Source: an uncultured Rhizobium sp.
Lineage (GTDB): Bacteria > Pseudomonadota > Alphaproteobacteria > Rickettsiales > UBA1997
DNA length: 64,000 bases
Direction of reading: 5' to 3'
Assembly (NCBI GenBank): GCA_964580715.1
Contig: CAZOKU010000002.1
Span: 531 to 64,530, forward strand
Shown here piece after piece: positions 1,923-43,393 of the stretch. Position numbers and translations under genes: made by a program. The notes beneath the pieces were generated by a model. That model was not told where the DNA came from. It saw nothing but the letters and a program-made list of their open reading frames with translations, and made no database searches. The stretch's first letter is position 1, and every line of letters starts with the position of its first letter.

Positions 1923-2094
1923 CCCCTCACCCTAACCCTCTCCCCGCTCGCGAGGAGAGAGGACGCGTGTATAAAGCCTTATCATTACACCCTTCTCCTC
2001 ACTCTCAAAGAGAAGGGATATTGGTTTTAGAGATAGAATCTTATTCACGGGTATCCCCTCTCCCCGCAAGCGGGGAGAGGGTTAGGGTGAGGGG
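1923..2094. repeat. Composite palindromic element (family C), about 172 bp, with 25-bp terminal inverted repeats and three internal hairpins
   Basis: Left end CCCCTCACCCTAACCCTCTCCCCGC (1923-1947) is the exact reverse complement of right end GCGGGGAGAGGGTTAGGGTGAGGGG (2070-2094). Internal hairpins are CCTCTCC..GGAGAGG (about 1935-1962), CCCTTCTC..GAGAAGGG (1990-2017) and CCCTCTCCCCGCAAGCGGGGAGAGGG (2055-2081). The element lies between lipB and htpG. Confidence 0.85.
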
Positions 2095-10056: not shown

Positions 10057-10094
10057 TATAAAACCCCCAGCATCACTCTGGTTGCAGACATAGT

Positions 10095-10138
10095 CCAGTT
10101 GCTGTACGGAGTCTCGACTCCGTCCACACTTTCATATC
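10095..10138. repeat. Family-A palindromic element (variant core ACGGAGTC-TCG-GACTCCGT)
   Basis: ccagttgctgtacggagtctcgactccgtccacactttcatatc shares the GCTG...stem-loop...CAC..TTCAT(A/G)(T)C layout with the other copies. Confidence 0.75.
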
Positions 10139-10173
10139 CTAAAATAATTTTTTAGAAAAATTTATCTCAACCG

Positions 10174-11439
10174 CTAAACCCCCAGCATCACCAACTGATC
10201 AATCCTTACCACAACTCTCCTCGCAATATTTTCAGAACTTTCAATCACCTCAAAAGCACGCCCCGACATAGATTTTACCATATCAGTATCTTCAAAAAAC
10301 TTCTTAACCACCACAGCAATTTCTGCGCCAGAATCAAGCATCACACAAGCATTTTGCCGCTCTAACTTTTCATAAATTTCTTTAAAATTAAAAACTCCAC
10401 GACCAGAAATAACCGCACATCCAAGCTTAATTGGCTCGAATGGATTATGCCCACCAATTTCAAAAAGCGAACCTCCAATAAAAGAAAAATTACAAAGCGA
10501 ATAAAAAATTCCCATTTCGCCTAAAGTGTCAACCAAGTAAATTTCTGTAGAATCTTCAATCTTTCCTGCAACACTTCTTTGCGCAATTTTGAAATTTCTC
10601 AACAAAGCCTTAACTTCCTCTGCGCGATTTGGATGACGCAAAACTAAAATTGTTAATAAATCTGGAAATTCACTTTTTAACTTCTTATGCGCCGCAATCA
10701 CATATTCCTCTTCACCCTTGTGAGTGCTTGCTGCAAGCCACATTTTTCTTCCGCCAATTTGTGTTTTTATTTTTTCTAACTCATCAAAATTAACCGATAA
10801 ATTTCTTGCTTGCGACTTCAAATTTCCATAAAATAAAACTTCCTGCTTGGTCAATTTTGCAAATCGCTCTTTACTTTCAACCATCTGCACAAAAATCGCT
10901 GCAAAATAATCAAAAATATTAAAATTAATTTTCTTAGCAAAATGCCATTTTTTAAAAGATTTTTCTGACATTCTAGCATTCACTAAAAAACTTAAAATTC
11001 CACGATTGCGCGCTTCAAAAACAAGGTTTGGCCAAATTTCTGATTCAACAAAAATTGCCACTCTTGGCTTCCAAAAATCAAAAAAACTTTTAACGCAAAA
11101 ATATGAATCAATCGGCAAAAATTGATGCAAAACTCTGCCTTTAAATTCTGGCAATTTTTTATCTAAAATCGCTGCAGAAGTGAGAGTTGTAGTGGTAAAT
11201 AAAATCGTAATTTTTGGCGAAAAATTTAATAATTCTTCAATCAAAACCATCGCTGAATTTGCCTCACCAACACTCACGGCATGAAGCCAAACAATGTGAC
11301 CTTCTGGCCTCTTCACCGAAGACTTCCCCAGTCTTTCAAGAAAACGTTTTTTATCTTCTTTTTTATTAAGCAACCGCCAAAACAAATAAACCAACAAAAG
11401 CGGGTAAATAACAATCGAAATAATACGGTAAAAAATCAT
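10174..11439 (-). CDS. waaA: 3-deoxy-D-manno-octulosonic acid (Kdo) transferase WaaA/KdtA
   Basis: 421 aa. N-terminal membrane anchor, VWLHAVSVGE motif, and a glycosyltransferase N/C layout (GGSL...GGHNPFEP). Confidence 0.85.
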   Translation of the reverse strand: MIFYRIISIVIYPLLLVYLFWRLLNKKEDKKRFLERLGKSSVKRPEGHIVWLHAVSVGEANSAMVLIEELLNFSPKITILFTTTTLTSAAILDKKLPEFKGRVLHQFLPIDSYFCVKSFFDFWKPRVAIFVESEIWPNLVFEARNRGILSFLVNARMSEKSFKKWHFAKKINFNIFDYFAAIFVQMVESKERFAKLTKQEVLFYGNLKSQARNLSVNFDELEKIKTQIGGRKMWLAASTHKGEEEYVIAAHKKLKSEFPDLLTILVLRHPNRAEEVKALLRNFKIAQRSVAGKIEDSTEIYLVDTLGEMGIFYSLCNFSFIGGSLFEIGGHNPFEPIKLGCAVISGRGVFNFKEIYEKLERQNACVMLDSGAEIAVVVKKFFEDTDMVKSMSGRAFEVIESSENIARRVVVRIDQLVMLGV

Positions 11440-20760: not shown

Positions 20761-23700
20761 TCAGGCATTTTTCACCACCTTTTCCAACAAAGAATTCTGC
20801 TGACATCTAGCATGTAAATGCTCAAAACTAAACTTATCCATATTTTGATCTTGTTCCATGCAAGCATAAAAATATTCCACCTCACCATTTTCATCAAACC
20901 TTTTTTGCAGACACTGCGAACAAACTGCCTTCATCATACATTGCATTGGCGCGTTTAAACTGGTAATTGCAATTGGCGCCTCCACAATTTCTGGCACAAT
21001 TTTTTCATAACGCAACTTCGCAATTTCATGCATCATTTCATCATTACCAATAGTAAAAATACGATCAATTTTATTGCTGATACCGATGCTGGGCTTAGTG
21101 CTGGAAAGGGTTACGATGCTGTGTTTGCTCCCAATGCTGGACTGGACAGAGCTGCTGGGCGGGGTTTGTAACCCCGCCCACATGTTCATGCCAAAATATT
21201 CTTTTACCGCATCAATCACCGTTCCTTTAATCCCTAAGCTTTCCACCTTGTGCAATTCCAACTTAGAATCATTTTCAATCGCAAAAATCATCTGGTCACA
21301 AGAATTTTCCATACGTTCTTGCCTAACCACAAAAGAAGCATCACGATATCCCGCAACAAAAATAACTTTACAACCATTTTGTTTAAAAACTTCCGCTAAT
21401 GCTGTAAGTGGCTGATTACCACGGCCTCCACCAATCAGTAAAACAGTCTCATTTTTCGGAATTTCCGTCGGCTTGCCACCAGGGCCCATGAAAACACAAG
21501 GCTCTCCTTCTTTAAAATTTTTAATCAAAGAAGTTGAACCACCAGTTTCTACAACAATTCCACTAATAATTCCATTAACTTCATCAACGCTTAAAGCTGT
21601 AACAGCAACACCTTCCATCGCTAAAGTTTTATCCTCAACTTTTTTTGCTAAAGCGTGATAATTTTGCAATCTAAAAATATGCCCAACTTTCGTTTTCCTT
21701 GCAAGCAGCGGCGCTTTAATAAAAATTTCAACGACGTGTTCTGACAAACGGTCAACTCTTTCAACTCTAGTTAAAAAATCATAATTAATTTTTTCTAAAA
21801 AATTCAAATCATACCTATCGCTGGACTGGGTTTCTAACCCTGTCCACATGTTCATATCTAATTTCTCAATAATCTGCTTATATCCCAATTTTGCACTGGC
21901 CATCGCCTTCACCACATTGCCCTCAAACTTTTCACTAGCATCACCAAAAAAACTAATTTTATCCGAATTAATATCCATTTGATCTTCATAAAACGGTGAT
22001 AGATTCGGATGAGTTCCAGCCGCAACCAGCAATGATCCACAAGGATATTCCCCTTCATTACATTTTAATGATTTTATATGAGAAAATTCATCAAGCTCAG
22101 CTTTTACAGGAACAACATTTTCAATAAATTCGACACCTTCTTCCAAAGCTTTATTTAACTCTTGATGATTGTGTTTGTAGGCTGGAGATTCCTGAATTTT
22201 TTTACGATATAAAATTTTTACACCACCAAGTTTTTTTAAAAATTCATGGCTCGAAGCAGATTTTAAAAGCTGCTCGTGATGAGACAAAAATTCTTCAGCA
22301 ATTATTTTTTCCTCTTCATTTAATTGTTTAAATAATTTTTCTTTACCAATTTTTGCAACATTTTCAGCAAATTTTTTAATCTGCTCAACATAATAAGCAC
22401 CAGCTTCACAAGCAACGTCAATCGCCGTCAACCCTCCTCCAACCACCAAAATTGGCATTCTAAGTTGTAAATTAGTTTGCAAATCTTTACGAAATGCCCC
22501 ACCTAAGTGCAACGCCATTAAGAAATCAGAAGCTTGGCGAATCCCTTTAGCAAAATTATTTTCTAAATTGATGATATTTGGTTTTCCCGCACCAATGCAA
22601 AGCGCCACATGATCAAAGCCATATTCTTTAACTGCATCTTCAATTGTAATTGATGAACCAAAACGAAGTCCGCCAAACATTCTAAAATTTTCTCTGCGCT
22701 CTAAAAGCAAACGAATAATTTTTAAAAAATTTTTATCCCATCTTGCCGTAATTCCATATTCCGAAACCCCGCCAAAACCATGTATCAAACGAGTTGAAAG
22801 CGGTTCATAAATTTCTTCAATAAATTTGATTGGCCTAAATTTTCTTCTATTACCAAATTCATCAATCCCTGATATTTCTGGATCTAAAGGCTCAATTTTC
22901 AAACCATCAATTGCAACAACGCTAAATCCTTCATTTAATAAATAGTGCGACAAAGTATAACCAGCAGGCCCTAAACCACATACTAAAATTTTTTTATTAT
23001 TCTCACTTTTAACAATTGGCGAATCAATATTTAACGGATTCCAACGCGTTAATAATGAATAAATTTCAAATCCATAAGGCAGTTTTAAAACATCCTTCAA
23101 CACTCGCGTTTCAATTTGCGGAATATCCACCGGATCTTGTTTTTGATAAATGCAAGCCTTCATACAATCATTGCAAATGCGGTGTCCAGTGCCTGCCACC
23201 ATCGGATTGTCAATAATTGTAAAAGCTAGTGATGCCAAAGAAAAACTTTCAGCCTTTAACAAATTCATCTCTGAAATTTTTTGATCTAAAGGACAACCTC
23301 CCAGCTGCTGGACGGGGTCAGACACATTTTTTTTCTCATATCCCTTACGACAAGAATCCTTATCCTGCCTATGACAAAAAATACAATAGTGCGCCTCCGC
23401 CAAAACCCGATTAAGCGCAAACCCTTGATCAGTAAGATCAAAACCATCACGATTACGTAAAAAGGTGTCAGACACCTTTTGATCAAAAGGTGTCTGACAC
23501 CTTTCAATTTTTTGCGGCAAAATAAATAAAGAACCATTTTTGTGGAAAGCTTTTCCTTCGCCGCTGTAAAGGGCCCAAGTTGCATAAGCTATAAAATCAG
23601 ATAACTCATCTTCAGCATTATTTTCAAGCAAAGAAAAAATTTTATCCGCTAACTTTTTTTCTAAATCATCAATATTTCCATGATAATCAAGACCAAGTGC

Positions 23701-38440: not shown

Positions 38441-41395
38441 ACCACCTGCAGGCTCAACTATGGATCCAGAAGAAGAGCGTGAAGCTGGACCAACAACTGC
38501 TCCAGATGAAGAGTTAGAAGACCCAACAGTTGTTCCACCTTTTGAAGATGAGGCAGAACCAACCATAACTCCTTTTTTACCACCGCTAGAACCAACCACA
38601 ACTCCTGATTTTTCCCTTCCTCCAACATCAGCAACACTGGTTCCTTTATTACCATATTTCTGAACTTTTGATGAACCATATCTTCCAACCTTTTTAGCAA
38701 GTTTTTCTGTACCACGCATTGCACGTCTTTGTGCTTTCCTTAAGAAATTACCAGTGCTTGACATCATCTTAGTCATAGAAGCGGCCCAAGGAGCAGGGCC
38801 TCCAGCACCAACCAACTTCTGAGCGAATTGCGTAATCTTATCCATAAATGCCGATAAAATAAACAATATAAATGCACCCTTCAGAATTGCCATAAACTTG
38901 GTTTTATTCATCGTTACCATAAGAATAGGAATTCCAAAACCAAGACTTCTAAACACTGAAGACACTTTGTAATTTACAATATTCATTATGCAGTAAATAC
39001 TTTCATCAGCTCCTGGTGTGGTGCAATCAATGGTTTTTTCTTCCTTCACACCATCTCCACTGAATAAAACATCACCAACTACTACCTTATCAAAAACAAT
39101 AATCACAAAAGCAAGATAACAAAACAAAATCATTGGCTGCAAACAAAAGCCCAGAACCTGTCGCCACCAACCATCGAACACATTTTTAGTACGATTAAAA
39201 AGTGCCAAAGTTATAGTGACAGGAGAAACATATATCAAAATCGTAATTGCAATAATTGCCACCAACATTATATGTATTGCTCGAATCACTAAAGACAACA
39301 TGAAGAACCCTAAGATCAAACTAAACACCACGAAATAAATACCAAGTCCACCAGTAAAAAACCCAGCAACCACTAACATAATTAAATTTGGAACTGTTGC
39401 TGAAGGTCCGTAACCCATAGCACGGGCCAATTTACAATCTAGTGTATCCCAAGGTCTTAAATATTCTTTTCCAGGAGGATAGGCTCGAGTTGCTGGATTA
39501 TATCTGGTATCCTCATTTTTATCTTTATAGTTAAAGCGAGGAAATTGACAACCATCTAGCCGATTTTGATTTACACTAGGACTGCCATAGTATCCATCAT
39601 CACCTAAATTGAACACCATGTTCGCCAAATAAGAAGAAGATTTAATAACACCAGAAGCAAATTGATCTTGCCATGCAGTGCCCAGCGCAAAATAAGAAAC
39701 TAATCCAATTTTTAATATGTAGGGAAGCAACTGTTTTTTTGCAACTGGCTGAAGCCCAAGCAAAATCATTGCACCAAAAAGCATCACCGAAATCGACATC
39801 GCAACTTTAATTACGGTTCGTAATCCCGATACTATCTTAGAAAAGAAAGAAGGAGTTGTTAAAGTATCACCATTTTTATACTTAACCCCACTATGTGGAC
39901 ATGGATTTTGTGTAGTAGTAACCACAATATCTGCCGTAGCATCAAAAAGAGGAATCTCAGAAGAATCATTACATATCGTATGCCCTGCCCTGTTAAAAAA
40001 TAAATTTTCTACAGTCTCTTTAAAACATTGTATAACTGGAGCAGAAAAATGCCTGATATTACTCGTCAATATTCCTGCATTATAAGAATAAACATTCTGC
40101 GAATCCCCTTCCATATTAGCGCAAGCAGAAGAAACAAAAGCTTGTGCGAAAGCAGGCTGCTTAATGGTTGGAATAATCGGAAGTTTTATGCAATGGTTCA
40201 TATATTGACAAGAGTTTGTCATATAACCAGGATTATTTGGGTCCGGATTTTGTGTTTCTGTTCCACCGCCAAGATTATGATTAAAAGGACAAACAGAATA
40301 TGTTTTTGCACAAATATAATTTGGCACAGTTTTAGATGGAAAAATATCAAAAGTTATCGCATCGACAATACATCTGCTGCCCAATTTACAAACTTTATAG
40401 TCTTTTCCTTTATCAATACACATTGTGTTTTGACTTCTTTGAACACAACAATCATAAGCATTTTGCGCAGCAGCTCTTTCATCTTCCGTAGCAAATTTAT
40501 ATAATAAAAACCGATTGCAAGCATAAACCGGAGCATTTCCTGCGCCAGTGTAATAATATTTTTGATTATCACTGTCATATCCAAGTCTTATTAACCTTGT
40601 AGGACCATCCCACGGGTTTGTACAAGCATCATCTCCATTATCCGTATATTCCATTCCACCATAAAAATATTCACGATAAAGCTTATTTGTCATATGGCGA
40701 CTTAGGTCACTATCAGAATTTATTCCATAACTGTTACATTCTGCAGGAATGCCCCCTGGACCGAATATAGTTTCAATACATTTACGATAACCACCCTTAC
40801 CTTTCACCAAAGGACTATTAGAGCCACTGTCAGCAGCACTGCCATCAGCCTTGCTCCATCCTGACCAAGCAGCGCCACAAACCCTTGTGCTATCATAAGC
40901 AGATTTTGCTGCTGCATAAACAACCCCCATAGCAGCAATCGTAGCAGCAGTTGAAGCAACCAAAGCCCAAGCAGTAGCACAACAAAAAGGATTAGAAACA
41001 CTAGTTGCCGCACAAGTTGCATTATTTTGTGCGATCTCCATAATTTTTGTTGGGGACATTGCAACCCCAGCAGCTATTTGGCGTGCGGTTTCAGCATTAT
41101 ATATCGTATTAGCACAAGCATTATTTGCCGCATATGACGCCGCAGCACCAACCAATCCAACACCAGCAACCAAAGACGCACAAACTGGATTAGAAATTTG
41201 CCAATCTAGATCTATACCACCAAAGGGAGTAAATGAAATTTCAGCAACATCACAACGATCTTGAGTATAACTTTTAACCGTTCTTGGCCCATCATAAATC
41301 GCATAAGCATTGTTTGTTTTACAGACAGCAGAAAAAAACAACAATAAAGCTAGAGAGTAACAAAAATTTTTTTTCCAAAAATTATAAAACATCAA
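38411..41395 (-). CDS. Large Cys-rich polytopic membrane protein, tentatively TrbL/VirB6-like
   Basis: 994 aa. Signal/anchor sequence, an approximately 500-aa N-terminal region with more than 20 Cys, at least 6 TM helices (e.g. LIMLVVAGFFTGGLGIYFVVFSLILGFFMLSLVIRAIHIMLVAIIAITILIYVSP, then FDGWWRQVLGFCLQPMILFCYLAFVIIVF, reminiscent of the TrbL/VirB6 core) and a Gly/Ser-rich tail (GSSGGKKGVMVGSASSSKGGTTVGSSNSSSGAVVG). The family assignment is from pattern memory only. Confidence 0.4.
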   Translation of the reverse strand: MMFYNFWKKNFCYSLALLLFFSAVCKTNNAYAIYDGPRTVKSYTQDRCDVAEISFTPFGGIDLDWQISNPVCASLVAGVGLVGAAASYAANNACANTIYNAETARQIAAGVAMSPTKIMEIAQNNATCAATSVSNPFCCATAWALVASTAATIAAMGVVYAAAKSAYDSTRVCGAAWSGWSKADGSAADSGSNSPLVKGKGGYRKCIETIFGPGGIPAECNSYGINSDSDLSRHMTNKLYREYFYGGMEYTDNGDDACTNPWDGPTRLIRLGYDSDNQKYYYTGAGNAPVYACNRFLLYKFATEDERAAAQNAYDCCVQRSQNTMCIDKGKDYKVCKLGSRCIVDAITFDIFPSKTVPNYICAKTYSVCPFNHNLGGGTETQNPDPNNPGYMTNSCQYMNHCIKLPIIPTIKQPAFAQAFVSSACANMEGDSQNVYSYNAGILTSNIRHFSAPVIQCFKETVENLFFNRAGHTICNDSSEIPLFDATADIVVTTTQNPCPHSGVKYKNGDTLTTPSFFSKIVSGLRTVIKVAMSISVMLFGAMILLGLQPVAKKQLLPYILKIGLVSYFALGTAWQDQFASGVIKSSSYLANMVFNLGDDGYYGSPSVNQNRLDGCQFPRFNYKDKNEDTRYNPATRAYPPGKEYLRPWDTLDCKLARAMGYGPSATVPNLIMLVVAGFFTGGLGIYFVVFSLILGFFMLSLVIRAIHIMLVAIIAITILIYVSPVTITLALFNRTKNVFDGWWRQVLGFCLQPMILFCYLAFVIIVFDKVVVGDVLFSGDGVKEEKTIDCTTPGADESIYCIMNIVNYKVSSVFRSLGFGIPILMVTMNKTKFMAILKGAFILFILSAFMDKITQFAQKLVGAGGPAPWAASMTKMMSSTGNFLRKAQRRAMRGTEKLAKKVGRYGSSKVQKYGNKGTSVADVGGREKSGVVVGSSGGKKGVMVGSASSSKGGTTVGSSNSSSGAVVGPASRSSSGSIVEPAGGSGGVRISGP

Positions 41396-42017
41396 AAACT
41401 TTTACTAGCTGATTAATCTCTTGGTTTTTAACCTTAAGAGAAGTTCGGTTAACCACTAAGTGAGAGGTTACATCAATTATTTTTTTTAGTTCAAACATTT
41501 CATTTTCAATTAAAGTTTTTCCACTGCTAACTAAATCTAAAATAAAATCACACAAACCAAGCGCCGGCGCAATTTCAATTGATCCGTTAAGCTTGATTGC
41601 TTCAGTTTGAACCCCATTTGCTGAAAAATATTTTTCTGCAATGTTGGTATATTTCGTGGCAATTCTGATATGACTAATTTTATTTAAATCAAGCTCAATA
41701 TTTTTTTTTGCCGCAATTGACAAACGACATTTGCCAATTTTTAAATCAAGAACTGGAAAAATTTCTGGTGAAGAAAATTCTTCTAAAACGTCAAGCCCAC
41801 AAATTCCAAGATCCGCCGCGCCAAATTTTACAAAAGTTGCCACATCAAAACTTCTAACTTTTACAATCTCCAAATTTTCTATATTGGTTTTAAAAATTAA
41901 CTTTCTTGCCGAATCATCAAAAAAATCAGCTTCCGGAACAATTCCCGCTCTTTCAAACAAAGGATAAAGCTCAGATAAAATTCTTCCTTTTGGAACTGCA
42001 AATAAAATTTTTTTCAT
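41382..42017 (-). CDS. hisG: ATP phosphoribosyltransferase, short form (HisG)
   Basis: 211 aa. LFAVPKGRI, VRSFDVATFVKFGAADLGICGLDVL, IATKYTNIAEKYF and LVSSGKTLIENEM. No other his genes are adjacent. Its stop overlaps the start of the 994-aa gene by 14 nt. Confidence 0.85.
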   Translation of the reverse strand: MKKILFAVPKGRILSELYPLFERAGIVPEADFFDDSARKLIFKTNIENLEIVKVRSFDVATFVKFGAADLGICGLDVLEEFSSPEIFPVLDLKIGKCRLSIAAKKNIELDLNKISHIRIATKYTNIAEKYFSANGVQTEAIKLNGSIEIAPALGLCDFILDLVSSGKTLIENEMFELKKIIDVTSHLVVNRTSLKVKNQEINQLVKVFDVL

Positions 42018-42043
42018 ATTTAAAAATTCTTATAATAACCTTT

Positions 42044-42084
42044 GGTGCTAGTCGGGGTCTCCTGACCCCGACTGACTGTTCATT
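42044..42084. repeat. Family-A-like palindromic element between hisG and the OMP gene
   Basis: ggtgctagtcggggtctcctgaccccgactgactgttcatt, with core GTCGGGGTC-TCC-TGACCCCGAC. Confidence 0.8.
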
Positions 42085-42178
42085 TTCCTATCAAAAATTG
42101 GCATTTATAATAACTTAAAATAAACCTAATAACCTAGAAAAAAAGCCGCTACCGCAAAAAAAATAATTTTTTCCATGT

Positions 42179-43393
42179 TTAAAAATTCTTATAATAACGA
42201 AGCAACAGCCCCAATCCATTAACTTTATTAGAACCAGTTTTAAAGTCATTATATTGATTTTGATAACCAACTTGCACTAAAAAACGATCAAATAAAATGT
42301 TTTTATCAAATTCATAACCAACTGAAATCTCTTTCAAAGATTGATCAAATCCATATTGATATGGCTTGTTATTGTGTCGAGCACTATATCCAAGCGTCAC
42401 ATTCCAATTACGACAAAAACGATTAACCGCATTAGCAGTTAAATAGTTTTCATCATTGCCACGACGCCCCAAAACATTTTTCAGCAAAGCATATTCAACC
42501 AAAAAATCTGTATCAACTTTTTCATGAGACGCAAATTTATAATTCATTCCCGCCACAACTCCTGTTTGGTTTGACACATTGTAATCCAAACTAGCATTAG
42601 CATTAACCGCTAAATTCATATAACCAAAATGATAAGTCAATTTTTCTCTTTCACCAAAATCAAATTTAATATCAAGCCCAATAGTGTAAGATTTTAAAGA
42701 TCTCGTATCACCAGGAACAGCATCTTGCTTGCGTTCCGACTCTCTGCTTGTAATCAAAGAATTATCCAAATTTTTGCGATCATTAGTGAAGCTAGAAAAA
42801 CTAAATTCATATTCACCAGTCTTTTTTAAATTTCCTAAACGATAAACTCCACCAAAACCAAGTTTTTCAGTTTGTCGATAGTTGTTTGCAATAAGATGGT
42901 TCCAAATGCCGCGATTCCAGCGCCAAGCAGTTCCAAAATTTGGATTAAACTTTCCCGCAAGAAGTGCAAATTTTTTCCTATCATAAGAAATGTTTAATTC
43001 TCTTGCATAAATTCCTTCTGAATCAAAAGCAAAATCGCCAGCATTATGCGACACTTGAGTTATTCCATTAGTTCTTCCATCTTGGTTCACAACTTCCATA
43101 ATAAACTGGCCATTTAATGCCAAATGCTTGGTAAGGTTAAGCGACGAAAAAAGACGGCCTCTTGCAGCAATATTTCTATATTCACTAGCTTTATCAGTGG
43201 CGCGATATTGATCATTAACATTTACATCAAAAATCAATTGATTAGAAAATTTTGGAAAAAAAGCCTCACCACTTTCTGTTTCTTTATTATCCTCTTCAAG
43301 CAAATGCCTGAAAGTGTTGATCTTAACATCTTCAGCAAATAACTTGAAAGGAAAGAAAATAAAAACTAAAACTATTAAAAAATTCTTTTTCAT
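42179..43393 (-). CDS. Putative outer-membrane beta-barrel protein (porin-like)
   Basis: 404 aa. Signal peptide MKKNFLIVLVFIFFPFKLFA, alternating-hydrophobicity strands throughout and a C-terminal ...LLLRYYKNF with terminal Phe. Confidence 0.5.
   Translation of the reverse strand: MKKNFLIVLVFIFFPFKLFAEDVKINTFRHLLEEDNKETESGEAFFPKFSNQLIFDVNVNDQYRATDKASEYRNIAARGRLFSSLNLTKHLALNGQFIMEVVNQDGRTNGITQVSHNAGDFAFDSEGIYARELNISYDRKKFALLAGKFNPNFGTAWRWNRGIWNHLIANNYRQTEKLGFGGVYRLGNLKKTGEYEFSFSSFTNDRKNLDNSLITSRESERKQDAVPGDTRSLKSYTIGLDIKFDFGEREKLTYHFGYMNLAVNANASLDYNVSNQTGVVAGMNYKFASHEKVDTDFLVEYALLKNVLGRRGNDENYLTANAVNRFCRNWNVTLGYSARHNNKPYQYGFDQSLKEISVGYEFDKNILFDRFLVQVGYQNQYNDFKTGSNKVNGLGLLLRYYKNF

What the first reader, a model, noticed from the sequence alone, without database searches (positions are those of the whole stretch)
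41998..42198. Approximately 42-45-bp duplication of the OMP-stop/hisG-start junction bracketing a palindromic element
gcaaataaaatttttttcatatttaaaaattcttataataac (41998-42039) and gcaaaaaaaataattttttccatgtttaaaaattcttataataac (42154-42198) are near-identical direct repeats about 157 bp apart. Copy 1 contains the functional hisG start (MKKILFAV) plus a relic of the OMP C-terminus (YYKNF*). Copy 2 contains the functional OMP C-terminus and stop plus a decayed hisG start (MEKIIFFAVAA..stop).

Between them lies the family-A-like element at 42044-42084. The ancestral state was evidently a compact OMP-hisG junction that was duplicated when the element arrived. This provides a dated snapshot of the insertion mechanism.
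Basis: seen in the sequence. Interest (0 to 1): 0.6.

Follow-up and report, generated by a model that had tools for sequence, protein, structure and literature searches.

The report
Hairpin repeat insertion duplicating gene junction
A small GC-rich hairpin repeat landed in the 2-base gap between a porin gene and hisG of an uncultured freshwater Rickettsiales bacterium, and about 45 bases of the junction were copied so that both genes kept intact ends; other copies of the repeat carry similar 11-42-base duplications, which hints at how these repeats, which have no known enzyme, insert.

Summary
41998-42039 and 42154-42198 are direct repeats: alignment score 62 against 17±3 for shuffles, with the 21 bases nearest the genes identical. 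A second assembler's contig is 100% identical across the locus.

Copy 1 carries the working hisG start and a relic porin end. Copy 2 carries the working porin end and a decayed hisG start.

In 14 same-genus genomes the porin→hisG junction holds one copy of each gene end. The gap is 0-21 nt in 11 of them, so the ancestral junction was compact.

The hairpin at 42046-42083 belongs to a REP/REPIN-like family with about 180-220 copies in this genome, and it occurs in 14 of 31 genus genomes.

The main new result is that at least 12 other copies are flanked by direct repeats of unique target DNA, 11-42 nt long. This is about 6 times more frequent than at random sites. The left repeat abuts the element's 5' end. 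A related doublet in two sister species carries a ~36-nt duplication.

I read the repeat as an insertion-coupled, long, variable target-site duplication. The orientation bias follows the replication strand, and all 10 informative duplication-bearing loci sit on the C-rich strand. No cognate enzyme is present in the assembly.

A third copy of TTATAATAAC and 39 nt of filler remain unexplained.

The parts
41382..42017 (-). hisG (ATP phosphoribosyltransferase, short form, 211 aa), functional start MKKILFAV at 42017
   Evidence: It matches TIGR00070 at 1.3e-51 and PF01634 at 1.7e-48. It is 70-77% identical to genus orthologues over residues 1-209.
41998..42039 (.). Direct repeat copy 1 (extendable to 41995). 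It holds the working hisG start, its 5' leader, and a relic of the porin C-terminus and stop (GYYKNF*, 42019-42039).
42040..42045 (+). 5' edge of the element (CTTTGG). It corresponds to the weakly conserved YYC-NN that precedes TGC in the family.
   Evidence: Family upstream consensus '..CtC'. The left repeats end 3-6 nt before TGC at 8 loci.
42046..42083 (+). REP-like core TGC-TAGTCGGGGTC-TCCT-GACCCCGACTG-ACTGTTCAT, with perfect 10-bp stems at 42050-42059 and 42064-42073
   Evidence: The nhmmer hit covers 42044-42083. The closest copies are on C8, C45, C14, C17 and C38 at 94-97%.
42084..42104 (+). Element tail TTTCCTATCAAAAATTGGCAT. It resembles the 19-nt spacer plus the first bases (..GGCAT) of an inverted second REP in doublets of the same subfamily, and the tail of the C27 copy.
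   Evidence: Comparison by eye with the doublets GTTCAT-N19-ATGAAC. This is an inference.
42105..42114 (.). Third exact copy of TTATAATAAC, the last 10 nt of the duplicated target. With 42030-42039 it brackets exactly the 65-nt element.
   Evidence: family D4. Unexplained: it may be the 10-nt target duplication of a second insertion, or a stutter.
42115..42153 (.). 39-nt AT-rich filler of unknown origin
   Evidence: It has no significant match elsewhere in the genome, no similarity to the hisG 5' coding region (p = 0.23), and no hit to the REP profile even with filters off.
42154..42198 (.). Direct repeat copy 2 (extendable to 42151). It holds the working porin C-terminus and stop (42179-42198) and a decayed hisG start.
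42126..42176 (-). Relic hisG start, now a 16-codon ORF MEKIIFFAVAAFFLGY*
   Evidence: Reading.
42179..43393 (-). Porin-like outer-membrane beta-barrel gene (404 aa), ending in ..RYYKNF*
   Evidence: It has no Pfam or NCBIfam hit. The AlphaFold model is an all-beta barrel (pLDDT 71.7, pTM 0.73). The best PDB folds are PorB, MOMP and OmpC porins, E down to 2e-11. It is conserved upstream of hisG across the genus.
10061..10191 (.). Second example in the same window.
   Evidence: (lead)

Best explanation
**What it is.**

**Shown.**
- The junction was compact in the ancestor.
- The hairpin is one of about 200 dispersed family copies.
- Flanking duplications of unique target DNA, 11-48 nt long and of variable length, recur at this family's copies, with the left repeat butting against the element's 5' end.

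**Inferred: how the duplication arose.** The element was joined between breaks, or nascent-strand ends, on the two DNA strands that lay 11-48 nt apart. Fill-in synthesis then copied the interval. Family orientation follows the replication strand. All informative duplication-bearing loci have the TGC..GTTCAT strand on the C-rich (lagging-strand) side. I therefore favour a replication-fork, single-strand route. One possibility is that the element is joined between the 3' end of one Okazaki fragment and the displaced 5' flap of the next. Another is a short template-switch excursion. I do not favour a classical fixed-stagger transposase.

**Inferred: what happened afterwards.** Selection kept the porin end in copy 2. 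It kept the hisG start and its 21-nt leader in copy 1. The redundant hisG start decayed. The long duplication is what allows such an element to sit in a 2-nt intergenic gap without damaging either gene.

**Not resolved.**
- Which enzyme does this. None is identifiable in this 85%-complete assembly.
- Whether the locus records one complex event or two successive insertions at the same point.
For: - **Repeat is real.** It is statistically strong and is reproduced by an independent assembler.
- **Relatives.** Each has a single copy of both gene ends and a short gap.
- **Family membership.** Searches place the hairpin in the family, which occurs in 14 of 31 genus genomes with 0 matches to the control pattern.
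- **Other copies with flanking direct repeats of unique DNA**:
  - C27: 42/42 nt
  - C52: 28/28 nt
  - C4 (recJ end): 26/28 nt
  - C46: 36 nt
  - C37: 36 nt
  - C24: 22/23 nt
  - C4 (xth start): 19-25 nt
  - C52b: 19 nt
  - window 10061-10191: 16 nt
  - C38: 13 nt
  - C17: 13 nt
  - C3: 11 nt
- **Enrichment over random sites.** Flank score ≥13 in 13/177 elements vs 12/1000 random sites, p = 1.3e-5. With the left repeat within 6 nt of the element, 10/177 vs 34/3000, p = 1e-4.
- **Signs of recent activity.** The two perfect repeats flank copies with identical 38-nt cores.
- **C27 locus.** Relatives have a short, unduplicated geneA/acs junction.
- **Independent event in relatives.** An orthologous REP doublet in G011 and G024 is flanked by a ~36-nt duplication of a gene start.
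- **Decay pattern at this locus.** The differences between the two copies lie only in the unconstrained half.
- **Orientation bias.** 98:53 overall, rising to 48:15 where |GC skew| ≥0.15. The bias flips with gene strand, so it follows replication rather than transcription (Fisher p = 0.01). It is 10/10 at informative duplication-bearing loci.
Against: - Only about 7-10% of family copies show detectable flanking repeats. The rest may be old, or may have arrived another way.
- At this locus the right-hand repeat does not abut the element. 49 nt lie between them, including a third TTATAATAAC.
- No donor copy with the same tail was found.
- No empty site at nucleotide resolution is available. The nearest genomes are only about 50% (porin) to 76% (hisG) identical in protein.
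- No enzyme was identified. There is no reverse transcriptase, no DDE_Tnp_1 transposase and no small GIY-YIG nuclease. The two RAYT-like genes are flanked by other palindromes.
- The flap and template-switch details are inference only.
Confidence: 0.72

Rival explanations
1. Two unrelated events. The junction was first duplicated on its own, by slippage or by a larger tandem duplication followed by deletion of the middle. A hairpin element later landed between the copies.
For: G016 has a 15-nt tandem duplication of the porin end at the same junction with no element present. So small duplications can exist here without an insert, unless that one is an excision footprint. At this locus 49 nt of non-element DNA lie between the element and copy 2.
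Against: This does not explain why the left repeat ends exactly at the element's 5' edge. It does not explain why at least 12 other family copies at unrelated loci show the same A-element-A arrangement in significant excess. No relative has the two-ended duplication.
Confidence: 0.1
2. Two successive insertions at the same nucleotide. An older insert, now the 39-nt AT-rich filler, made the 45-nt duplication. The hairpin element arrived later with only a 10-nt duplication (TTATAATAAC).
For: TTATAATAAC occurs exactly at both ends of the 65-nt element (42030-42039 and 42105-42114). I estimate the chance of that at about 1e-3. Family copies often cluster, and target duplications as short as 11-13 nt occur.
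Against: The filler has no hairpin and no detectable similarity to the family or to anything else in the genome. The model also needs the second insertion to reuse precisely the first joint.
Confidence: 0.15
3. The element was moved by a RAYT (Y1 HUH) transposase, like classical REP/REPIN elements, and the duplication is incidental.
For: Two RAYT-like genes exist: NF047646 at 62.7 and 54.8 bits, and PF01797. The strand bias relative to replication is typical of single-strand HUH transposition.
Against: Y1 HUH insertion leaves no target duplication (established knowledge of the IS200/IS605 family). Both RAYT-like genes are bracketed by their own, different palindrome families, and no family A copy lies within 1.5 kb of either. 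The family consensus lacks the GTAG tag.
Confidence: 0.08
4. Assembly artefact, or att-type repeats left by a site-specific integrase.
For: The exactly shared part is only 21 nt, which is close to the smallest k-mers assemblers use. The genome is a 74-contig MAG.
Against: The copies differ from each other. The whole structure (about 200 nt) fits within a read pair. A second assembler gives the identical sequence. The duplicated sequences differ at every locus, so no specific att core exists. No integrase lies adjacent.
Confidence: 0.03

Closest known systems
REP / REPIN elements with RAYT transposases (Nunvar 2010; Bertels & Rainey 2011; as cited in PMC3733652)
   Same: Short GC-rich hairpins of about 38 nt, present in hundreds of dispersed and mostly extragenic copies. 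About 40% occur as inverted doublets with 15-40-nt spacers. Orientation is biased relative to replication.
   Different: There is no GTAG tag and no RAYT flanked by this family. The two RAYT-like genes have other cognate palindromes. Long variable target duplications are not expected from HUH transposition.
CGTC-tagged REPs, including Rickettsia RPE-4/RPE-6 and Neisseria dRS3 (Di Nocera et al. 2013, PMC3733652)
   Same: They are alphaproteobacterial, hairpin plus short unpaired tail, mostly in head-to-head dimers, and have no dedicated transposase. One subfamily here reads ATGAA-CGTC-stem..stem-AGCA.
   Different: Stems here are 10-11 bp and GC-rich from the first pair, not 8-9 bp starting with A-T pairs. 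Most subfamilies carry CGTG, CATG or CCTA instead of CGTC. That paper does not mention target duplications: the words 'duplication', 'direct repeat', 'target site' and 'TSD' each occur 0 times.
YPAL/RU-2 miniature insertion sequences of Yersinia (De Gregorio et al. 2006, as summarised in PMC2229807)
   Same: They are palindromic non-coding elements whose insertions make target duplications of variable size (3-26 bp), at or next to gene ends or dyad symmetries.
   Different: YPAL is about 168 bp with internal inverted repeats and is unrelated in sequence. Duplications here reach 42-48 nt and flank 38-nt hairpins or their doublets.
'Insertion with long target duplication' of restriction-modification genes (Nobusato 2000; Furuta et al. 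2010, PMC2853133)
   Same: Long, variable direct duplications of unique target DNA (30 to over 400 bp), often overlapping gene ends, with no recognisable transposase.
   Different: The inserts there are kilobase-sized gene cassettes, probably acquired by transformation. They are not a multicopy hairpin repeat.
IS1634 / IS1549 / IS1630 (long, variable direct repeats on insertion; own knowledge, with IS1634 mentioned in PMC2266710)
   Same: They show that a transposition reaction can give variable duplications tens of bases long.
   Different: Those are DDE insertion sequences of 1.5-2 kb. No DDE_Tnp_1 gene and no multicopy insertion sequence is present in this assembly.

Membership tests
REP/REPIN (RAYT-associated, GTAG-tagged) | Short GC-rich imperfect palindrome in many dispersed, mostly extragenic copies | tested here: met
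   There are 87 strict-pattern copies, and 180-218 nhmmer hits, in 1.43 Mb.
REP/REPIN (RAYT-associated, GTAG-tagged) | Inverted doublets (REPINs) | tested here: met
   ATGAA(C) is enriched 10-40 nt downstream of the core in about 77 of 182 copies. Intact doublets are seen in relatives.
REP/REPIN (RAYT-associated, GTAG-tagged) | Conserved GTAG tetranucleotide at one end | tested here: not met
   The family consensus is tTGCtgGgCgGaaT..CCGcCctcacgTTCAT, with no GTAG.
REP/REPIN (RAYT-associated, GTAG-tagged) | A RAYT gene flanked by copies of the same repeat | tested here: not met
   Two RAYT-like genes are flanked by GGTGTCAGACACC-type and GGGGACAGTATACTGTCCCC-type palindromes. No family A copy lies within 1.5 kb of either.
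CGTC-tagged REP superfamily (includes RPE-4/RPE-6) | Unpaired CGTC tag next to the stem and a short unpaired tail at the other end | tested here: inconclusive
   A literal CGTC occurs only in the CAGGCGG subfamily. Other subfamilies carry CGTG, CATG or CCTA. A GCA/AGCA tail is present.
CGTC-tagged REP superfamily (includes RPE-4/RPE-6) | Stems of 8-9 bp beginning with A-T pairs, and loops of 4-5 nt | tested here: not met
   Stems are 10-11 bp and G/C-rich from the first pair. Loops are 3-5 nt.
CGTC-tagged REP superfamily (includes RPE-4/RPE-6) | No dedicated transposase gene associated | tested here: met
   No gene for a nuclease or transposase is bracketed by inverted family copies. There is no reverse transcriptase, no DDE_Tnp_1 and no small GIY-YIG nuclease.
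Classical bacterial MITE (Correia, ERIC, RUP type) | Terminal inverted repeats matching an insertion sequence, and a short target duplication of fixed length (often TA) | tested here: not met
   Duplications vary from 11 to 48 nt. There is no parental insertion sequence in the assembly.
Palindromic elements with variable target duplication (YPAL-like behaviour) | Variable-length direct duplication of unique target DNA flanking the element, with an unduplicated site in relatives | tested here: met
   13 loci were tabulated. Relatives are unduplicated at two loci, at protein level. The excess over controls is shown.
GIY-YIG-bracketed hairpin repeats (lead from earlier scan notes) | A small GIY-YIG nuclease gene flanked by inverted copies of this family | tested here: not met
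   This genome has none; its only GIY-YIG matches lie in open frames of 571 and 1074 aa. In relatives, 1 of 12 small GIY-YIG loci has a family A doublet, on one side only. The others sampled are flanked by different hairpins or none.

The most novel reading that the evidence does not exclude
Transposase-less REP-type hairpins (the CGTC/RPE-like class, whose means of movement is unknown) do not move by HUH or DDE transposition. Instead they are stitched as single strands into nascent DNA at the replication fork. This could happen between an Okazaki fragment's 3' end and the displaced flap of the next fragment, or by a brief template switch. The result is strand-specific insertions with 10-50-nt duplications. 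Those duplications rebuild both gene ends, which lets the repeats colonise the tightest junctions of streamlined genomes. Earlier unchecked notes of this scan describe similar footprints for unrelated hairpin families in other bacteria and in archaea. If those hold, this would be a general, host-enzyme-driven insertion pathway.
Probability: 0.3. Interest if true: 0.75.

Novelty: new variant of a known kind. Interest (0 to 1): 0.5.

Why it matters
REP-type hairpins without a cognate RAYT, including the Rickettsia RPE-4/-6 class, have no known mechanism of spread. The published survey concludes only that they 'apparently lack a dedicated transposase' (PMC3733652).

A footprint narrows the possibilities and makes the question testable. 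The footprint here is long and variable in length, abuts the element's 5' end, and is biased by replication strand. It can be tested by surveys of empty and filled sites in populations.

It also explains how selfish repeats can sit in 0-15-nt gene junctions of a 1.4-Mb genome without killing either neighbour: the duplication hands each gene its own copy of the shared junction. The price is a leftover pseudo-start or pseudo-stop that decays. Such relics can confuse gene callers, producing false small ORFs and wrong starts.

Tried and rejected
- **Empty-site or other strains in JGI metagenomes:** a 33-nt degenerate junction pattern gave 0 hits.
- **Exact-protein look-up of hisG:** it found only one other contig, which was identical.
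- **Donor copy:** neither the tails nor the filler of four inserts match anything else in the genome.
- **Filler as decayed hisG coding sequence:** not significant, p = 0.23.
- **Filler as decayed second REP:** no profile hit even with filters off.
- **Retro-element route:** no RVT_1.
- **IS1634-like DDE route:** no DDE_Tnp_1 and no multicopy insertion sequence.
- **RAYT route:** both RAYT-like genes have other cognate palindromes.
- **GIY-YIG route (lead from earlier notes):** there is no small GIY-YIG gene in this genome, and no consistent link to family A in relatives.
- **Genes bracketed by inverted family copies:** only housekeeping genes.
- **Shared motif at the right end of the inserts:** TCAAC appears at 4 of the 13 duplication-bearing loci but is not enriched family-wide. 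By eye I saw no symmetric motif at the two ends of the duplicated intervals, only a weak tendency for the left repeat to end in C.
- **Rfam:** no credible RNA family in 41800-42400.
- **Intrinsic terminator:** the hairpin scores on the + strand only, which is antisense to both genes.
Full report
**The observation**

The window is a 35-36% GC stretch of a 1.43-Mb, 74-contig, about 85%-complete MAG. Its closest public relatives are freshwater-lake MAGs labelled 'Rickettsiales bacterium'.

On the minus strand lie a 404-aa gene (42179-43393) and hisG (41382-42017). hisG is confirmed by TIGR00070 and PF01634. The 404-aa protein has no family hit.

The two quoted sequences sit at the stated coordinates. 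They align with a score of 62, against 17.3±3.1 for shuffles. The 21 nt nearest the genes are identical. The other half differs by two substitutions and two indels. The similarity can be stretched to 45-48 nt.

Copy 1 gives ..GYYKNF* and then the real MKKILFAVPKGR. Copy 2 gives the real ..RYYKNF* and then MEKIIFFAVAAFFLGY*.

A Logan contig from run SRR11567520 is 100% identical over 3072 nt across the whole structure.

**The ancestral state**

The porin→hisG order is conserved in the genus. In 14 orthologous loci each gene end occurs once. The gap is 0-21 nt in eleven loci and 38 nt in one.

Two sister species carry other material at the same point. G011 has three different GC-rich hairpins there. 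G024 has an in-frame 3×66-nt tandem repeat at the hisG start. G016 has a 15-nt tandem duplication of the porin end.

The junction is therefore a recurrent landing place.

**What lies between the copies**

The perfect 10-bp hairpin at 42050-42073 is the centre of a 38-nt unit, TGC-stem-loop-stem-NN(N)GTTCAT. This unit occurs in 87 strict-pattern copies and 180-218 profile hits in this genome. It is found in 14 of 31 genus genomes, with no matches to the reversed control pattern.

About 40% of copies have an inverted partner 10-40 nt downstream, making REPIN-like doublets. The family is REP-like but lacks the GTAG tag. One subfamily carries a CGTC tag like the transposase-less alphaproteobacterial REPs and RPE-4/-6 of Di Nocera et al. 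(PMC3733652). Stem length and composition differ from those families, so I do not file it as a member.

**The key test: is the duplication linked to the element?**

I compared the 70-75 nt left and 160-170 nt right of every oriented copy, with family copies masked (the lengths differed slightly between runs).

- Thirteen of 177 copies score ≥13, against 12 of 1000 random sites (p = 1.3e-5).
- When the left repeat is required to end within 6 nt of the element, the counts are 10/177 against 34/3000 (p = 1e-4).

The loci, in G000 coordinates:

| Locus | Flanking repeat |
|---|---|
| C27:14374 | 42/42 nt; last 14 codons of a gene next to acs |
| C52:5975 | 28/28 nt |
| C4:50591 | 26/28 nt; recJ end; flanks a doublet with a degenerate second unit |
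| C46 | 36 nt |
| C37 | 36 nt, decayed |
| C24 | 22/23 nt |
| C4 minus strand:9991 | xth start, 19-25 nt |
| C52:4367 | 19 nt |
| window 10061-10191 | 16 nt |
| C38 | 13 nt |
| C17 | 13 nt |
| C3 | 11 nt |
| this locus | 45-48 nt |

- The duplicated sequences are unique and differ at every locus.
- All the sites lie at or close to ORF ends.
- The left repeat abuts the 5' edge of the element, or partial 5' 'stutters' of it at C52 and at window 10078-10100.
- The two perfect repeats flank copies with identical cores, as expected for recent events.
- At C27, relatives have a short, unduplicated junction.
- In relatives, an orthologous doublet in G011 and G024 is flanked by a ~36-nt duplication of a gene start.

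Three of these loci had been flagged independently by earlier first readers. I re-derived them from the sequence.

**Mechanism**

The footprint is a variable, long target duplication. This argues against Y1 HUH (RAYT) insertion, which leaves no duplication, and against a fixed-stagger DDE transposase.

The assembly holds no reverse transcriptase, no DDE_Tnp_1 transposase, no multicopy insertion sequence and no small GIY-YIG nuclease. Its two RAYT-like genes are each bracketed by a different palindrome family. No candidate enzyme gene is bracketed by inverted family A copies. Relatives carry many small GIY-YIG genes, but only 1 of 12 has a family A doublet nearby.

Orientation is informative. 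The TGC..GTTCAT strand lies on the C-rich strand in 98 of 151 copies, rising to 48 of 63 where skew is strong. The preference flips with gene strand, so it tracks replication rather than transcription (p = 0.01). All 10 duplication-bearing loci with informative skew follow it.

My best reading is a single-strand, fork-associated insertion, in which the element is joined between nascent ends that overlap by 11-48 nt. This could be a displaced flap or a short template switch. This step is inference, not shown.

**Consequences at this locus**

The duplication gave the porin its own stop, in copy 2. It gave hisG its own start plus 21 nt of leader, in copy 1. Both of those halves are still identical, while the redundant hisG start has decayed. 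The event is therefore not recent, and C27 and C52 are better 'snapshots'.

The intergenic RNA would fold into the GC hairpin plus an adjacent AT-rich hairpin (ΔG -38.8 kcal/mol, z = -3.2). No Rfam family matches credibly. No terminator-like site on the genes' strand lies in the insert; the hairpin scores only on the opposite strand.

**What remains unexplained**

Between the 65-nt element (42040-42104) and copy 2 lie a third exact TTATAATAAC (42105-42114) and 39 nt of AT-rich filler. The filler has no match to the genome, to hisG or to the family. Either the event was complex, with several hops, or two insertions used the same joint, the later one with a 10-nt duplication. Neither reading changes the conclusion that the repeat is an insertion footprint.

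**Comparison with what is known**

- Variable target duplications of 3-26 bp are described for Yersinia YPAL elements (PMC2229807).
- 'Insertion with long target duplication' is described for restriction-modification cassettes (PMC2853133).
- Long variable repeats are known for IS1634-type insertion sequences (own knowledge).
- For REP and RPE-type hairpins the reviews list the target duplication as unknown or do not mention it.

This is therefore a new variant of a known kind. Earlier unchecked notes of this scan report similar footprints for unrelated hairpin families elsewhere. I treat those as leads only.

Noticed in passing
L003:2747-2952 (G024:C123): In a sister species, hisG carries an in-frame N-terminal extension made of three 66-nt (22-aa) tandem units that are 99% identical. 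It starts right after the ancestral ATGAAAAA. The reading frame stays open into MKK-less SKKLLLAVPKGR.
   Followed up: partly
L020 (G016:C7), porin/hisG junction: A 15-nt tandem duplication of the porin end (ACAAAAAACTTTTAG GCAAAAAACTTTTAG) with no element between the copies. It is either slippage or the footprint of an excised insert.
   Followed up: no
L002 (G011:C163), porin/hisG junction: 124 nt holding three other GC-rich hairpins (GGGATGGC..GCCATCCC twice, and GGGCGACC..GGTCGCCC) at the same junction. This gap is a hotspot for several repeat families.
   Followed up: no
L116 and L120 (G011:C124, G024:C153): An orthologous family A doublet flanked by a ~36-nt duplication of a gene start. 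The upstream copy is a decayed pseudo-start. A partial 5' REP fragment lies between the left repeat and the doublet.
   Followed up: partly
G000 C22:18476-19009 (L021) and C5:10291-10944 (L022); window 23461-23504: Two RAYT-like genes, each bracketed by its own palindrome family (AAAGGTGTCAGACACCTTT-type and GGGGACAGTATACTGTCCCC-type). These are classical REPtron layouts, distinct from family A. The first palindrome also occurs in the window at 23461-23504.
   Followed up: partly
A partial 5' REP fragment (GGTTGCAGAC..) lies between the left repeat and the full copy.
   Followed up: yes
genus genomes G001-G046: Relatives hold up to about six small (80-150 aa) GIY-YIG nuclease genes each, some with internal stops. 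Some are flanked by hairpin repeats unrelated to family A (for example L066, TCGAGCTAGCATCTCGRCGACGC). This genome has none.
   Followed up: partly
window 1923-2094 and G000 C5, C20, C28, C53: A further repeat family built on CCCTCTCCCC..GGGGAGAGGG hairpins with a GGTTAGGGTGAGGGG tail is scattered in the genome.
   Followed up: no
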